Of a stretch of 64,000 nt of DNA, positions 3,347 to 7,342 are shown in pieces (within the stretch, counting starts at the first letter, position 1; each line of letters opens with the position of its first letter). Both the position numbers and the translations under genes were made by a program. The DNA lies in assembly GCF_965641715.1 (NCBI RefSeq), contig NZ_OZ282453.1; one strand, given 5' to 3'. The notes beneath the pieces are model-generated. The model was not told where the DNA came from. It worked only from the letters and a program-made list of their open reading frames with translations, and ran no database searches. The stretch is from Escherichia coli (GTDB lineage Bacteria > Pseudomonadota > Gammaproteobacteria > Enterobacterales > Enterobacteriaceae).

Positions 3347-3772
3347 TCAATGCACTGCCACAGCATTTCCTGCCGGGCCACCACGGTTCATCTGATTGAA
3401 ACCGGCGATTGCCACTGCGACAAAATCATCGGCGTCTCTCACCAGTCGCTCCCGCGTCTCCACCAGCTCCCGAAAATAAGCTGAACTGTGGCTACGCATT
3501 CTGGCCACCAGCAAAGGTGGCATTGCCTTTTCGATCGCTGGTAACAACGCCTGAATTTTTTCAACTGCATCAGGGGTGTCTTTCTCTACCCAGCGGAAAA
3601 TTTTCTGGGTATTGCGAGCCAGGGCTTCCGGATGGCTGTCGTCGTACAGTTCAGGAAACGTCATACCCAACTCAAAATAAGCCTGGGTTATTCCAGCTGC
3701 CGGAACTTTTTCGCCATCAGGACGCGCCCAGGCATTCATCGCCATGCGGATGTGTTCATGCTTGATTTTCAT
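3347..3772 (-). CDS. YdaT-like (CII-position) early regulator
   Basis: Translation from MKIKHEHI... resembles Rac prophage YdaT as remembered; strong RBS (AAGGGGGG); lies downstream of the Cro-like gene. Confidence 0.55.
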   Translation of the reverse strand: MKIKHEHIRMAMNAWARPDGEKVPAAGITQAYFELGMTFPELYDDSHPEALARNTQKIFRWVEKDTPDAVEKIQALLPAIEKAMPPLLVARMRSHSSAYFRELVETRERLVRDADDFVAVAIAGFNQMNRGGPAGNAVAVH

Positions 3773-3998
3773 GAATCCCCCCTTGGTTAGAAGGCGGATT
3801 ATGATCAGAACCGGGAATGACAACCGTCGGTATGTGTAACTCATATTTGAGCGCCCCGGCAGTGACTGCCTGAATTAGCAACGCCCATTTCCACGGAACC
3901 TCTTCCCCCCACATGCTGACTGTGGTTTTTGACGTTCCTAGAGCTGCGGCTGTTTTAACAACTCCGCCAAAATAGCCTAATACTTCTGATTTTTTCAT
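3756..3998 (-). CDS. Cro-like HTH regulator (YdaS-like)
   Basis: 80-aa ORF from MKKSEVLGYFGG... with GGAG RBS; divergent from the CI-like repressor. Confidence 0.6.
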   Translation of the reverse strand: MKKSEVLGYFGGVVKTAAALGTSKTTVSMWGEEVPWKWALLIQAVTAGALKYELHIPTVVIPGSDHNPPSNQGGIHENQA

Positions 3999-4089
3999 GA
4001 GTCGCTCCATAAAACTGAACGCCAAAAGTTTAATAATCAAAACCAAAGAAAGTCAAGAAACAAAACCATCTGTGTTTTAAAATCAAAAC
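3999..4089. promoter_or_regulatory. Divergent immunity promoter/operator region (pR/pRM equivalent)
   Basis: 91-bp AT-rich spacer between divergent cro-like and cI-like starts; contains inverted repeats AAACT-N10-AGTTT and AAAAC-N7-GTTTT. Confidence 0.5.
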
Positions 4090-4728
4090 ATGAGCAAGCA
4101 AACAATATCTGAACGCATAACCCAACGTATGCATGCGCTAAACCTGAAAGGCAAAGACCTTGTCAATGCCACTGGCGCATCAAAAGGCTCCGTAAGTCAA
4201 TGGATGAACGGTGGAGGAGCGCCGTCCTCGCGTTACATAAGTTCACTGGCAAAAATATTGAAAGTAAACGAAAATTGGCTTCTTAATGGAGGAGAGTTAA
4301 ATACAGGTGATTCGCTTGATCTATCTTTACCGCCGATAAAAACGGTTCCGCTACTATCACTTCAGCAGGCAGCAAGCTGGAGTGATTATATGAAAAATTC
4401 CTCAATAACCTCTTGTGTGCAGCTTGTCGGAGAAATCCCGGCCAATACCTTTGCAGTTGTTCTAGAGAGTGACAGTATGTCAACATCTGGTGGGGGAGTT
4501 TCCATCCCAAATGGTTCAACAGTTTTTGTTGATCCCGATCGAACCGTACAACCAGGAAATATTGTCCTTGCCTTACCCAAAGGGACCACAACACCTGTCA
4601 TTCGTAAACTGGAGATAGAAGGGCCGGATATTCTTTTAGTCCCCACGAATCCTCGCTACCCTTCAATTATGCTGGATGATCTATCTTGCATATTGGGCGT
4701 ATGCTTTAAAATTCAACAAGATATTTAA
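4090..4728 (+). CDS. CI-like prophage repressor (N-terminal HTH, C-terminal S24 LexA-like peptidase domain)
   Basis: 212-aa ORF with an HTH-like N-terminus (GASKGSVSQWMNGGGAPS) and a C-terminal region with the look of a LexA/CI autocleavage domain; divergent from the cro-like gene. Confidence 0.8.
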   Translation: MSKQTISERITQRMHALNLKGKDLVNATGASKGSVSQWMNGGGAPSSRYISSLAKILKVNENWLLNGGELNTGDSLDLSLPPIKTVPLLSLQQAASWSDYMKNSSITSCVQLVGEIPANTFAVVLESDSMSTSGGGVSIPNGSTVFVDPDRTVQPGNIVLALPKGTTTPVIRKLEIEGPDILLVPTNPRYPSIMLDDLSCILGVCFKIQQDI

Positions 4729-5159
4729 CCGACCTCATCTATTTGATTAACTGTATGCCATCGTGGTGATGGCTTAACAGCTGCCTGCTTAAAATGTTTT
4801 GATAAAAAAACATTGACCTGAAAAGTTCATTTTTCTAAACTTCATTCATTCCCTCTCCCCACCCCACAGAATGCAGGGCAATACTTCGAGTTACCAGGCA
4901 GTGGTCAGGGGTTAAGTAGCCAGCCTGAGGCGTAAGAACATGACGGCAGGGTCCAACTTTAATAACTATGCAGCAGGTTTTTGTTCCGCTACCCCGGCGT
5001 TAAGGGGAAACAGAGGATTTCTCAGTGGGCGAAGTCAAACATCAGAATGGAAGGCATCACGGGATCGGCAAAGAAGCAGCAATGGCGCTTTATATTGACA
5101 TCAGCGCCATTGCCGGACAGGTAAGAGTTATCAGAGCGGTAACTAAGCGGTATGCGTCT

Positions 5160-5360
5160 TTATTTCAGAAAGTCTCTGGTGAGTGCACCGAAGATATTGT
5201 CAACGATTTCGTCATCGAACTGCGAGGACTCATCTTCAGTTACAAGGTGACCACAATTTTTGCAGATGGCTCCCGCGAAACTGTCAGAGCCCTGCGGCTT
5301 AAAGGATGTGTCAAAGACTTCGCCACCACATTCTGGGCAAGAAAACTTGATTGTATTCAT
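5160..5360 (-). CDS. Small zinc-ribbon protein (66 aa)
   Basis: CPECGG ... CKNCG motif pair; AGGAAA RBS 8 nt upstream of ATG; antisense to a 118-aa plus-strand ORF, so the coding strand is not settled. Confidence 0.45.
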   Translation of the reverse strand: MNTIKFSCPECGGEVFDTSFKPQGSDSFAGAICKNCGHLVTEDESSQFDDEIVDNIFGALTRDFLK

Positions 5361-5452
5361 AACCAATTTCCTCTCGAGTAACAGACCCCTCAGAGGATAC
5401 CACCTCGCCTGACGTGGTTAAAAGCAGGCAATGCGAACCACAAGGAGCTGAC

Positions 5453-5671
5453 ATGCAGAAACGAGAACCTGTCATCATCGCGCCAGACTATACCGATGAT
5501 GAACTTTATGAGTGGATGCGCCAGAAAATTAATGCAGCGCAGGATCTGAAATGGGCTAATGAAGCCAGGGCTAAGCAGGCTGAAAATCTGTTCTCTCTGG
5601 AGCAGGATATCACCAATCTGGAAAAAGCAGCGGCATTAAGCATTGCCAGAATGATTACATACCCACGTTAA
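5453..5671 (+). CDS. Small phage protein (72 aa)
   Basis: AAGGAG RBS 7 nt upstream of ATG (MQKREPVIIAPDY...). Confidence 0.4.
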   Translation: MQKREPVIIAPDYTDDELYEWMRQKINAAQDLKWANEARAKQAENLFSLEQDITNLEKAAALSIARMITYPR

Positions 5672-5693
5672 TAGCTAACCAACGAGGCTAATA

Positions 5694-6101
5694 ATGGAAT
5701 TTAAAGATTTACCAAAAGAAATCCAGACAATTGCTGCAACGACTCTCGGTGATAGTCTGGTGAAAATTGACCCGGCATACACCAAAAAAGAAACCATCGA
5801 TAATATGGTTCGTAATGTGCGCAATGCTTTTTCTGGGCTATATGGTTCTGATAATCAAAAGCAGGAAAGCGATGTTAATGAACGGGTAATTTCTGTTTGC
5901 GTGAATGGCCATGTTCTTTCATCAATCAAAACAGAAACAGCGACAGTCTTCGATTGCCTTTGCATTGTACAGAGCCTTGTTGATGCCCTGTTTCGTTCAG
6001 TGAATTTAGAAAATGATGCAAATCTGCGAGGGCGCACAATAGCACATCCATATGCACATACTTTAGGCTCTGTGGATATCAAAGATCCCACAAATCTTTA
6101 A
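5694..6101 (+). CDS. Hypothetical phage accessory protein (135 aa)
   Basis: GAGG RBS; 3' end overlaps the convergent 77-aa gene by 23 nt. Confidence 0.5.
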   Translation: MEFKDLPKEIQTIAATTLGDSLVKIDPAYTKKETIDNMVRNVRNAFSGLYGSDNQKQESDVNERVISVCVNGHVLSSIKTETATVFDCLCIVQSLVDALFRSVNLENDANLRGRTIAHPYAHTLGSVDIKDPTNL

Positions 6102-6312
6102 TGAAATAGTTAACGCGAATTGTACTTGCTCTTTCAGTTGCTTTCAGAATACGCGTTGAAACTGCTGGCGGTAATTTGGTATTCCATTTATTAAAATCAT
6201 GCCCGGGGAAGTACTCTTCGAAAATACTTTTAACTGCAGACTCGCCTATTGAAATGCTGCTTACCATGCGATTTTGATAAAGGCATTTAGCAATAAGAGT
6301 TGATTTTAACAT
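6079..6312 (-). CDS. Hypothetical small protein (77 aa), convergent with the early-left genes
   Basis: AGGAGG RBS immediately upstream of ATG. Confidence 0.4.
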   Translation of the reverse strand: MLKSTLIAKCLYQNRMVSSISIGESAVKSIFEEYFPGHDFNKWNTKLPPAVSTRILKATERASTIRVNYFIKDLWDL

Positions 6313-6803
6313 TCACCCTCCTGAGGGTTGGTAATTAAGGAGTTCTCCACGGGTGAGGTGGAGTGCGTGCGCCGGACACGGGTGAACATCCGGCACTGAC
6401 AGTTTACTGAAAGGATATTTCCCTGAAAAGTCAGACCATAACGCGAAAGCGCACGGCGAGGTAGCTGGTTCATAGATAGCCTGTCGTTAAATTTTCGTCG
6501 ACCGTGCGCTTCCGGTTGTGGCAACCCGCGAAATGGCGCGGCGGTAAGTATGGCGGGGTTATTCCTTCCCCGTTGAGGACACCGGGTTGTCAGGTTGACC
6601 ATACGCTTAAGTGACAACCCCGCTGCAACGCCCTCTGTTATCAATTTTCTGGTGACGTTTGGCGGTATCAGTTTTACTCCGTGACTGCTCTGCCGCCCTT
6701 TTTAAAGTGAATTTTGTGATGCGGTGAATGCGGCTAAGCGCACGCGGAACAGTTAAAACCAAAAACAGTGTTATGGGTGGATTCTCTGTATCCGGCGTTA
6801 ATT

Positions 6804-6817
6804 GTTAACTGGTTAAC
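6804..6817. promoter_or_regulatory. Palindromic GTTAAC-N2-GTTAAC site with a third GTTAA half-site adjacent (operator candidate)
   Basis: Read directly: cgTTAAttGTTAACtgGTTAACg, followed by a CCTGG-N5-CCAGG inverted repeat; ~60 bp upstream of the 62-aa gene start. Confidence 0.35.
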
Positions 6818-6872
6818 GTCACCTGGAGGCACCAGGCACTGCATCACAAAATTCATTGTTGAGGACGCGATA

Positions 6873-7061
6873 ATGAAAACGTTATTACCAAACGTTAATA
6901 CGTCTGAAGGTTGTTTTGAAATTGGTGTCACTATCAGTAACCCTGTATTTACTGAAGATGCCATTAACAAGAGAAAACAAGAACGGGAGCTATTAAATAA
7001 AATATGCATTGTTTCAATGCTGGCTCGTTTACGTCTGATGCCAAAAGGATGTGCACAATGA
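6873..7061 (+). CDS. Small protein (62 aa) with hydrophobic C-terminus
   Basis: GAGGA RBS; stop overlaps the next gene start (ATGA). Confidence 0.4.
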   Translation: MKTLLPNVNTSEGCFEIGVTISNPVFTEDAINKRKQERELLNKICIVSMLARLRLMPKGCAQ

Positions 7062-7249
7062 ATTCAGCATTTGCGCTTGTTCTGACAGTTTTTCTTGTTT
7101 CCGGAGAGCCAGTTGATATTGCAGTCAGTGTTCACAGGACAATGCAGGAGTGTATGACTGCAGCAACCGAACAGAAAATTCCCGGTAACTGTTACCCGGT
7201 CGATAAAGTTATTCACCAGGATAATATCGAAATCCCGGCAGGTCTTTAA
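7058..7249 (+). CDS. Small protein (63 aa) with N-terminal signal/TM segment
   Basis: AAGGA RBS; N-terminal hydrophobic stretch AFALVLTVFLVSG; translationally coupled to the preceding gene. Confidence 0.4.
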   Translation: MNSAFALVLTVFLVSGEPVDIAVSVHRTMQECMTAATEQKIPGNCYPVDKVIHQDNIEIPAGL

Positions 7250-7342
7250 AACAGTTCCGTAATAAATATCCGGTTTCATTCTTATATGCCAGCAATGGCA
7301 GGGATTTGTTCATCCTTAAATCTGTCATGAGGTTAAAACAAA

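What the first reader, a model, noticed from the sequence alone, without database searches (positions are those of the whole stretch)
6873..7249. Translationally coupled small-protein pair immediately upstream of the exonuclease (kil/cIII position)
A 62-aa protein with a hydrophobic C-terminus and a 63-aa protein with an N-terminal TM/signal segment overlap by ATGA. They sit where lambda encodes Kil (a division inhibitor) and cIII. Small membrane-active proteins at this position are often host-toxic or modulate host proteases, and a coupled pair could also be a toxin-antitoxin-like module.
Basis: inference. Interest (0 to 1): 0.4.

Follow-up and report, generated by a model that had tools for sequence, protein, structure and literature searches.

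The report
dicB–ydfD: known prophage division-inhibitor/lysis gene pair
The two overlapping small genes are dicB (a cell-division inhibitor) and ydfD (a lysis protein), a studied gene pair from Qin-type prophages that most E. coli genomes carry, so the finding is real but ordinary.

Summary
A 62-aa ORF (6873-7061) and a 63-aa ORF (7058-7249) overlap by ATGA at 7058-7061.

Both genes are already characterised. ORF1 is DicB, 100% identical to E. coli K-12 Qin DicB. ORF2 is YdfD (DUF1482), which differs from K-12 YdfD at one residue (A6 for V6). The DicF sRNA lies 175 nt upstream (6647-6698). The order ydfC–dicF–dicB–ydfD–exonuclease–xis–int matches the Qin dicBF operon, here in an undecayed prophage arm next to potC.

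The locus occurs in 4749 of 5426 complete E. coli genomes and in 20 phage records. The pair and its 4-nt start/stop overlap persist in alleles with dS up to about 1.6 (dN/dS 0.15-0.69).

Published work shows that DicB binds MinC and targets it through ZipA to break up FtsZ rings, and that it blocks ManYZ-dependent phage entry. YdfD lyses dividing cells and is reported to inhibit IspG. DicB co-expression prevents that lysis.

The "membrane-active" and "toxin–antitoxin" ideas are mostly unsupported.

Verdict: already known, low interest.

The parts
6873..7061 (+). dicB: 62-aa cell-division inhibitor, 100% identical to E. coli K-12 Qin DicB
   Evidence: Pfam PF05358 E=1.9e-40, positions 1-62 of 62. 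NCBIfam NF049927 scores 132.8 bits against a cutoff of 100. Translation is identical to K-12 DicB. RefSeq annotates it as dicB.
7058..7249 (+). ydfD: 63-aa lysis protein (DUF1482/YebW family), 62 of 63 residues identical to K-12 YdfD (A6 for V6)
   Evidence: Pfam PF07358 E=2.1e-26; phrog_1092 E=1.1e-36; comparison with K-12. A6 is the majority residue in the family, 72 of 84 sequences. RefSeq names it 'lysis protein YdfD'.
7058..7061 (+). ATGA start/stop overlap between dicB and ydfD, a possible site of translational coupling
   Evidence: Read directly from the sequence. Diverged alleles L003, L004, L006 and L007 keep it as ATGA or GTGA. An AAGGA Shine-Dalgarno sequence lies 8 nt upstream inside dicB.
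6647..6698 (+). DicF sRNA, an antisense inhibitor of ftsZ and manX translation, processed from the same polycistronic transcript
   Evidence: Rfam RF00039 scores 76.7 bits (gathering 48), E=5.1e-16, model positions 1-52 of 52. No differences from K-12 fall within 6647-6698. Processing is described in PMC10448788.
6699..6872 (+). dicF-dicB spacer holding the dicB Shine-Dalgarno sequence (GAGGA 6861-6865); the last 18 nt before the ATG are identical in all alleles examined
   Evidence: A sub-threshold STnc100 hit covers 6696-6905.
5453..5671 (+). ydfC, an upstream gene of the dicBF operon
   Evidence: phrog_1744 E=3e-38. Annotated as ydfC in near-identical loci.
4090..4728 (+). CI/LexA-type repressor (HTH plus S24 peptidase) occupying the position of DicA; presumed repressor of the operon
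   Evidence: Pfam Peptidase_S24 E=2e-13 and HTH_3. Annotated 'LexA family protein' in related loci. A role in repression is inferred from position only.
7343..9814 (+). 823-aa exonuclease gene immediately downstream, the intact form of the K-12 ydfE remnant
   Evidence: phrog_2082, positions 1-823 of 823. Pfam Rv2179c-like 3'-5' exonuclease domain at 642-813, E=1.5e-67. In K-12 the gene is truncated next to an IS2 fragment.

Best explanation
The interval holds dicB and ydfD, the fifth and sixth cistrons of the dicBF (pL-type, early-left) operon of a Qin-family lambdoid prophage. The prophage arm here is intact: CI/LexA-type repressor, ydfC, two extra small genes, dicF, dicB, ydfD, a full-length exonuclease, xis and int, followed by potC.

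Inferred regulation: the operon is silent while the prophage repressor is bound. On derepression one long transcript is made.

Published for K-12 sequences identical or nearly identical to these:
1. RNase III and RNase E cut DicF out of the transcript, and DicF blocks ftsZ and manX translation.
2. DicB binds MinC. The DicB-MinC complex is recruited by ZipA to the septal ring and disassembles FtsZ rings, so cells filament.
3. The same DicB-MinC interaction inhibits ManYZ, which excludes lambda-like phages that inject DNA through ManYZ.
4. Over-produced YdfD lyses cells only if they are dividing. It is reported to bind IspG and block the MEP isoprenoid pathway, depleting the lipid carrier needed for the envelope.
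5. DicB or SulA co-expression prevents that lysis.

Inferred from sequence: the conserved 4-nt overlap plus an internal Shine-Dalgarno sequence means ydfD is translated from ribosomes that have just finished dicB, or that start beside its stop codon. YdfD would then never be made without its functional brake, DicB.
For: Identity of the genes:
- Pfam and NCBIfam matches are above curated cutoffs.
- DicB is 100% identical and YdfD 62/63 identical to the K-12 proteins. Only 9 substitutions and one 1-base indel separate the roughly 1 kb aligned with K-12 (window 6326-7350).
- DicF is present at 76.7 bits.
- Gene order matches K-12 Qin and many RefSeq prophages.

Distribution:
- The locus is in 4749 of 5426 complete E. 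coli genomes.
- All 20 phage records with DicB also carry an adjacent YdfD.

Selection and starts:
- Both ORFs are under purifying selection, and the overlap is kept in alleles 47-67% identical in protein.
- The short start codons are the only conserved ones.

Mechanism from the literature:
- DicB-MinC-ZipA and ManYZ: PMC6832061.
- Operon transcription and processing, including a ydfABC-dicFB-ydfD transcript: PMC10448788.
- YdfD lysis, IspG binding, rescue by ispG, and suppression by DicB or SulA: PMC8835842, citing Masuda et al. 2016, FEMS Microbiol Lett 363:fnw039.
Against: - Nothing here contradicts the gene identification.
- No experiment exists for this particular prophage. Its repressor differs from DicA: it is a 212-aa S24-peptidase type, probably RecA-cleavable, so induction signals may differ from K-12.
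- Translational coupling is inferred from the overlap only. ydfD has its own Shine-Dalgarno sequence, and the junction has no unusual RNA structure (z-score 0.03), so independent initiation is equally possible.
- The IspG mechanism rests on a single study that used pull-downs with the hydrophobic N-terminal part of YdfD, and no enzyme kinetics could be done (PMC8835842).
- As I recall the earlier Masuda paper, it proposed membrane association. That paper is not held in the library.
Confidence: 0.95

Rival explanations
1. The pair is a toxin-antitoxin-like module. YdfD is the toxin and DicB a dedicated antitoxin that neutralises it directly, and the overlap fixes their ratio.
For: The 4-nt overlap is conserved. 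All 20 phage records with DicB have YdfD adjacent. DicB co-expression abolishes YdfD lysis (PMC8835842, citing Masuda 2016).
Against: DicB is itself growth-inhibitory, and the unrelated division inhibitor SulA protects equally, so protection is indirect (PMC8835842). YdfD homologues in Salmonella, Citrobacter and Klebsiella phages follow other tiny ORFs, not DicB. Phage Evi swaps both genes for kilR alone. There are no TA or defence-system profile matches. The genes sit inside a long repressor-controlled operon, not behind an autoregulated promoter of their own (PMC10448788).
Confidence: 0.04
2. YdfD is a membrane or periplasmic effector. Its N-terminus would be a signal peptide or anchor (a possible signal-peptidase site VSG|EP), and the two invariant cysteines would form a periplasmic disulfide. 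Lysis would then come from an envelope target rather than from cytoplasmic IspG.
For: Residues 4-15 are hydrophobic, with a 19-aa Kyte-Doolittle maximum of 1.87. C32 and C45 are invariant or nearly so, and a small-residue motif (V/I)(S/T)G-E follows the hydrophobic run. As I recall, Masuda 2016 proposed membrane association. The IspG evidence comes from one laboratory.
Against: AlphaFold2 puts residues 5-12 and 18-26 in a beta-hairpin packed against a helix, with pLDDT 84-93. The N-terminus has no basic n-region. Hydropathy falls to 1.29 and 0.77 in the Klebsiella and Salmonella homologues. Lu et al. purified soluble YdfD and reported in-vivo FRET with IspG and rescue by ispG over-expression (PMC8835842). 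That paper also cites earlier work in which the C-terminal domain alone retained reduced killing activity.
Confidence: 0.1
3. The ORFs are decaying, non-functional remnants of a cryptic prophage, kept only by hitch-hiking.
For: K-12 Qin is defective, with IS2-truncated exonuclease and integrase genes. dN/dS values reach 0.67-0.69 for some DicB allele pairs.
Against: dN/dS is below 1 for every pair, at dS up to about 1.6. Length, start, Shine-Dalgarno sequence and overlap are all conserved. The pair is present in sequenced phage genomes such as Tritos, HannyBb and mEp460. The proteins are demonstrably active (PMC6832061, PMC8835842).
Confidence: 0.01

Closest known systems
dicB of the E. coli K-12 Qin (Kim) cryptic prophage: DicB, a MinC-dependent division inhibitor
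   Same: The 62-aa protein sequence is identical. It sits in the same position downstream of dicF with the same Shine-Dalgarno sequence. The nucleotide sequence is about 99% identical.
   Different: The operon is controlled here by a 212-aa CI/LexA-type repressor with an S24 peptidase domain rather than the 135-aa DicA. An ECs_2282-family zinc-ribbon gene on the opposite strand replaces ydfA/ydfB. Two extra genes lie between ydfC and dicF.
ydfD of Qin: YdfD lysis protein (DUF1482/YebW family), reported IspG inhibitor
   Same: 62 of 63 residues are identical. It has the same 4-nt overlap with dicB and the same downstream spacer to the exonuclease gene.
   Different: Residue 6 is A where K-12 has V. 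A6 is the family consensus. The effect on lysis is untested.
KilR of the Rac prophage and Kil of lambda (FtsZ-directed division inhibitors in the early-left operon)
   Same: They share a functional class with DicB (prophage division inhibitors) and a genomic slot. Phage Evi carries a kilR homologue (83% nt identity to Rac kilR) exactly where this window has dicB-ydfD, with near-identical flanks.
   Different: There is no detectable sequence similarity. DicB acts through MinC and ZipA rather than, to my knowledge, directly on FtsZ. The slot here holds two genes rather than one.
Lambda cIII (FtsH/HflB inhibitor)
   Same: It is also a small protein encoded in the early-left operon.
   Different: A Pfam scan at E<=0.1 gave no cIII match for either ORF. 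The known functions of DicB and YdfD do not involve host proteases.
Single-gene phage lysis proteins ('protein antibiotics': phiX174 E vs MraY, Qbeta A2 vs MurA, M Lys vs MurJ)
   Same: YdfD is a small phage protein said to lyse growing, dividing cells by blocking one step of envelope-precursor supply (PMC8835842).
   Different: YdfD sits in the early operon of a tailed temperate phage that has its own holin and endolysin genes elsewhere. Its reported target, IspG, lies upstream in isoprenoid synthesis. No sequence or fold relation was found.

Membership tests
DicB (Pfam PF05358 / NCBIfam NF049927) | Full-length profile match above the curated cutoff | tested here: met
   PF05358 scores 136.8 bits (cutoff 27) over positions 1-62 of 62. 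NF049927 scores 132.8 bits (cutoff 100).
DicB (Pfam PF05358 / NCBIfam NF049927) | Sequence identity to the experimentally characterised K-12 DicB | tested here: met
   62 of 62 residues identical.
DicB (Pfam PF05358 / NCBIfam NF049927) | Located downstream of dicF in a repressor-controlled early-left prophage operon | tested here: met
   DicF is at 6647-6698. Gene order matches Qin.
DicB (Pfam PF05358 / NCBIfam NF049927) | MinC-dependent, ZipA-targeted inhibition of Z-ring formation | not testable with these tools
   Published for the identical protein (PMC6832061 and the Johnson et al. 2002 and 2004 papers cited there).
YdfD / DUF1482 (Pfam PF07358; also 'YebW family') | Full-length profile match above the curated cutoff | tested here: met
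   PF07358 scores 92 bits (cutoff 25) over profile positions 1-57 of 57. phrog_1092 matches positions 1-63 of 63.
YdfD / DUF1482 (Pfam PF07358; also 'YebW family') | Conserved family residues: C32, C45, the EQKIPG-x-CYP motif, G16 | tested here: met
   All are present in the window protein. C32 is invariant and C45 at least 90% conserved in the 33-sequence alignment; each is C in 82 of 84 sequences in the larger set.
YdfD / DUF1482 (Pfam PF07358; also 'YebW family') | Division-dependent lysis on over-expression; binding to IspG | not testable with these tools
   Published for K-12 YdfD, which differs at residue 6 only (PMC8835842).
Rac KilR / lambda Kil | Sequence homology to Kil or KilR | tested here: not met
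   BLASTP of DicB against the Evi KilR homologue gives no alignment at E<=100. No Kil-type Pfam match.
Rac KilR / lambda Kil | Occupies the division-inhibitor slot upstream of the recombination/exonuclease genes in the early-left operon | tested here: met
   In phage Evi a kilR homologue replaces exactly window ~6860-7273.
Lambda cIII | Sequence match to the cIII family | tested here: not met
   The Pfam scan at E<=0.1 lists only DicB (plus a chance microprotein hit at E=0.098) for ORF1 and DUF1482 for ORF2.
Type II toxin-antitoxin module | Recognisable toxin or antitoxin domains, or a defence-system profile | tested here: not met
   No TA domains in Pfam. No PADLOC match.
Type II toxin-antitoxin module | Obligate two-gene unit: the toxin is always accompanied by its cognate antitoxin | tested here: not met
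   DUF1482 homologues in Salmonella SW-37 and Klebsiella phages follow unrelated tiny ORFs, and neither they nor Citrobacter Omnitron matched DicB by tblastn.
Type II toxin-antitoxin module | Direct binding of toxin by a labile antitoxin; autoregulated promoter | not testable with these tools
   The literature indicates indirect protection, since SulA also protects, and transcription from dicBp far upstream (PMC8835842, PMC10448788).

The most novel reading that the evidence does not exclude
The least ordinary reading still open concerns intact, inducible phages of this family. In them, the conserved dicB-ydfD overlap might form a division-gated lysis or abortive switch: YdfD kills only cells that escape the DicB/DicF division block. 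A linked possibility is that YdfD's real target is not IspG. AlphaFold2 predicts a compact beta-beta-alpha-beta domain with two invariant cysteines, no solved structural relative, and a hydrophobic first strand, and that strand could have produced artefactual pull-downs. The role of either protein in a productive phage cycle has never been tested.
Probability: 0.12. Interest if true: 0.35.

Novelty: already known. Interest (0 to 1): 0.08.

Why it matters
It matters little as a discovery. dicB has been studied since 1988 and ydfD since 2016, and RefSeq already labels both genes.

The case has some use as calibration. A reader with no tools correctly predicted a Kil-like, host-toxic function from position and size alone. 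The clean swap between dicB-ydfD and kilR in sibling phages shows this slot to be an exchangeable cassette for division inhibitors.

Three small questions remain open:
- What YdfD does during a real phage cycle.
- Whether the conserved overlap enforces co-translation with DicB.
- Whether IspG is the true target.

Tried and rejected
- **Solved structures.** Sequence searches for DicB and YdfD found none.
- **YdfD fold.** A Foldseek search of the AlphaFold2 model against the PDB gave nothing significant; the best E-value was 1.2.
- **Defence systems.** PADLOC gave no match for either protein.
- **Junction RNA structure.** Folding the dicB/ydfD junction showed no structure beyond chance, z-score 0.03, so there is no evidence for a coupling hairpin.
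- **Promoters and terminators.** The scan of 4600-7500 found nothing convincing inside the pair. It found only a weak terminator-like hairpin at 7287-7300 after ydfD and a pL-like candidate at 4813-4841. Total counts were close to the shuffled expectation.
- **Evi Kil protein.** The Pfam search found no family. I identified the protein by DNA similarity to Rac kilR instead.
- **Masuda et al. 2016** (PMC5975272) is not in the library. Its results are cited through PMC8835842 or marked as my recollection.
- **Longer ORFs.** I rejected the longer ORF versions (97 aa from GTG 6768; 81 aa from ATG 7004) because their starts are absent in diverged alleles.
- **One failed call.** A Pfam call failed on a wrong frame.

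Full report
**1. Observation**

The sequence shows an ATG at 6873 opening a 62-codon frame that ends with TGA at 7059-7061. An ATG at 7058 opens a 63-codon frame that ends with TAA at 7247-7249. The two share the four bases ATGA at 7058-7061.

The mechanical ORF list gives longer versions: 97 aa from GTG 6768 and 81 aa from ATG 7004. In diverged alleles of the same locus, no start codon exists upstream of the short starts in several cases. This holds for ydfD in L003, L004, L006 and L007, and for dicB in L004 and L007. The short starts keep their Shine-Dalgarno sequences: GAGGA 7 nt before the dicB ATG, and AAGGA or GGAG 8 nt before the ydfD start.

**2. What the genes are**

ORF1 matches Pfam DicB end to end (E=1.9e-40) and the NCBIfam "cell division inhibition protein DicB" model above its cutoff. 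ORF2 matches Pfam DUF1482 end to end (E=2.1e-26) and phrog_1092.

A megablast of 6300-7350 against 5426 complete E. coli genomes found the locus in 4749 of them, often in several copies. RefSeq annotates it as "dicB: cell division inhibition protein DicB" and "ydfD: lysis protein YdfD" or "DUF1482 family protein".

Against the K-12 (BW25113) Qin prophage, window 6326-7350 differs by 9 substitutions and one 1-base indel. DicB is identical, and YdfD differs only at residue 6, which is A here and V in K-12. Alanine is the majority residue at that position in the family, in 72 of 84 sequences.

**3. Surroundings**

Rfam places the DicF sRNA at 6647-6698 on the same strand: 76.7 bits against a gathering score of 48, covering the full model.

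The gene order in the window is:

| Coordinates | Strand | Feature |
|---|---|---|
| 3347-3844 | − | YdaT-family gene |
| 3756-4046 | − | Cro-like gene |
| 4090-4728 | + | CI/LexA-type repressor with S24 peptidase domain |
| 5160-5366 | − | ECs_2282-family zinc-ribbon gene |
| 5453-5671 | + | ydfC |
| 5694-6101 | + | 135-aa gene |
| 6079-6312 | − | convergent 77-aa gene |
| 6647-6698 | + | dicF |
| 6873-7061 | + | dicB |
| 7058-7249 | + | ydfD |
| 7343-9814 | + | 823-aa exonuclease |
| 9867-10145 | + | xis |
| 10114-11232 | + | int |
| from 11336 | | a DUF2335-domain gene of uncertain origin (11336-11803, −), then host potC and potD |

This is the dicBF operon of Qin-type lambdoid prophages in an undecayed form. 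In K-12 the exonuclease gene is cut short next to an IS2 fragment, the integrase is partial, and the repressor is the short DicA.

**4. Conservation**

I took alleles from other E. coli prophages and from a Stx2a/PPompW phage. They are 47-67% identical in YdfD and, by direct count of the aligned sequences, 56-61% identical in DicB (61% by tblastn for the PPompW allele). All keep both genes at 62 and 62-63 codons, and all keep a 4-nt start/stop overlap, either ATGA or GTGA.

Nei-Gojobori dN/dS is 0.15-0.69 for dicB and 0.33-0.50 for ydfD, at dS up to about 1.6.

In the phage collection, tblastn found DicB in 20 records, and every one has YdfD abutting it. These include the phage genome records Tritos, HannyBb and mEp460.

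YdfD homologues also occur without DicB:
- Salmonella phage SW-37, where a 66-aa unrelated ORF sits upstream with a 1-nt overlap.
- Citrobacter phage Omnitron.
- Six Klebsiella phages; in the one examined, a 37-aa ORF sits upstream with a 4-nt overlap.

 DUF1482 is therefore the more widespread gene, and it does not depend on DicB.

**5. The "kil position"**

Phage Evi is nearly identical to the window on both sides of the pair. It carries a 73-aa gene in place of window ~6860-7273, the segment that runs from just before the dicB Shine-Dalgarno sequence to about 24 nt after the ydfD stop.

That gene is 83% identical in DNA to Rac kilR and is annotated kil or kilR in E. coli genomes. It has no protein similarity to DicB.

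The slot is thus an exchangeable cassette for division inhibitors.

**6. Mechanism (from the literature, for identical or near-identical sequences)**

- **Transcription and DicF.** Transcription starts at dicBp, which is repressed by the prophage repressor. [quoted passage not shown] A ydfABC-dicFB-ydfD species was detected, but none extending into ydfE (PMC10448788).
- **DicB.** DicB binds MinC. The complex is taken to the septal ring through ZipA and depolymerises FtsZ rings. Through the same MinC interaction, DicB inhibits ManYZ and protects against lambda-type phages that need ManYZ for DNA entry (PMC6832061).
- **YdfD.** Over-expressed YdfD lyses cells. DicB or SulA co-expression prevents this, so lysis needs active division. 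YdfD was reported to bind IspG, and lysis was relieved by ispG over-expression (PMC8835842, citing Masuda et al. 2016).
- **CRISPR-Cas.** ydfD mRNA rises when E. coli CRISPR-Cas is inactivated (PMC9782134).

My own inference is that the conserved overlap and internal Shine-Dalgarno sequence ensure YdfD is made together with DicB. The junction shows no special RNA structure, so coupling is unproven.

**7. The membrane claims**

The DicB C-terminal third is amphipathic. Its best 19-aa hydropathy is 0.95, and the stretch includes three basic residues. Its known partners are cytoplasmic or septal.

YdfD residues 4-15 are hydrophobic, but:
- A conserved G-E-P motif follows the run.
- No basic residue precedes it.
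- Hydropathy is 1.87 here, falling to 1.29 in Klebsiella and 0.77 in Salmonella homologues.

An AlphaFold2 model built from 33 family members has mean pLDDT 81.7. It places residues 5-12 and 18-26 in a beta-hairpin, followed by a helix at 29-38 and a strand at 44-47. The model has no significant match in the PDB.

C32 and C45 are each conserved in 82 of the 84 family sequences compared. I therefore rate the TM/signal-peptide reading as possible but less likely than a small soluble domain. This question, and the solidity of the IspG target, are the only open points.

**8. Toxin-antitoxin idea**

This idea is not supported, for five reasons:
- DicB is itself toxic.
- Its protection against YdfD is mimicked by SulA.
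- YdfD homologues occur with other partners.
- Both genes are replaced together by kilR in phage Evi.
- No TA or defence-system profile matches either protein.

**9. Verdict**

The feature is real and correctly located. It consists of the already named and studied genes dicB and ydfD, in a very common E. coli prophage module. Novelty is "already known" and interest is low.

Noticed in passing
window 6647-6698 (+): DicF sRNA, a full-length Rfam match (76.7 bits). It lies 175 nt upstream of dicB and was not mentioned in the finding. Together with dicB it gives this prophage two independent division inhibitors.
   Followed up: yes
window 6696-6905 (+): A sub-threshold Rfam hit to the Salmonella sRNA STnc100 (34.8 bits against a gathering score of 47) covers the dicF-dicB spacer. 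This spacer is nearly invariant between the window, K-12 and phage Evi, and its last 18 nt are identical even next to strongly diverged dicB alleles.
   Followed up: partly
window 5694-6312: Two genes lie between ydfC and dicF and are absent from K-12 Qin: a 135-aa gene (+, phrog_1363) and a convergent 77-aa gene (−, phrog_10348) that overlaps it by 23 nt. Neither has a known function, and neither matches Pfam or NCBIfam.
   Followed up: partly
window 5160-5366 (-): A 68-aa zinc-ribbon protein, annotated 'ECs_2282 family putative zinc-binding protein' in related genomes, is encoded antisense to the early-left operon where K-12 has ydfA/ydfB. It gives a weak PHROG hit to a Lar-like restriction-alleviation family (E=0.0078).
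   Followed up: no
window 7343-9814 (+): The 823-aa 'exonuclease' is often annotated as exonuclease VIII (RecE). Its C-terminal catalytic domain is an Rv2179c-like DEDDh 3'-5' exonuclease (E=1.5e-67), and it scores far below the NCBIfam ExoVIII cutoff (275 against 1269 bits). K-12 ydfE is its truncated remnant, cut next to an IS2 fragment.
   Followed up: partly
window 4090-4728 (+): The repressor of this prophage is a 212-aa HTH plus S24-peptidase (LexA/CI-like) protein, unlike the short DicA of K-12, which lacks the cleavage site. The dicBF operon here may therefore be SOS-inducible.
   Followed up: no
window 10114-13086: The prophage arm ends with int (10114-11232). A DUF2335 gene (11336-11803, −) and about 500 bp of unassigned sequence follow before potC (12292-13086) and potD. 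The prophage appears to be inserted in the potABCD operon just upstream of potC, and potB is not visible on this side.
   Followed up: no
L005 (Escherichia phage Evi) 2779-3000: A kilR homologue occupies exactly the dicB-ydfD slot in an otherwise near-identical early-left region. This is a clean cassette swap of unrelated division inhibitors.
   Followed up: yes
MT713136.1 (Aeromonas phage AP1) 249906-250152, matching window 6636-6882: The record of a 254-kb Aeromonas jumbo phage contains 247 bp that are 99.6% identical to the E. coli dicF region, near the end of the record and unannotated. This looks like assembly contamination or a chimera.
   Followed up: no
L010 2254-2692 and L011 2301-2698: In Klebsiella and Salmonella phages, the DUF1482 (YdfD-like) gene follows other very small ORFs (46 and 37 aa, or 66 aa) through 4-nt or 1-nt overlaps, not DicB. 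Chains of tiny overlapping genes seem typical of this slot.
   Followed up: partly
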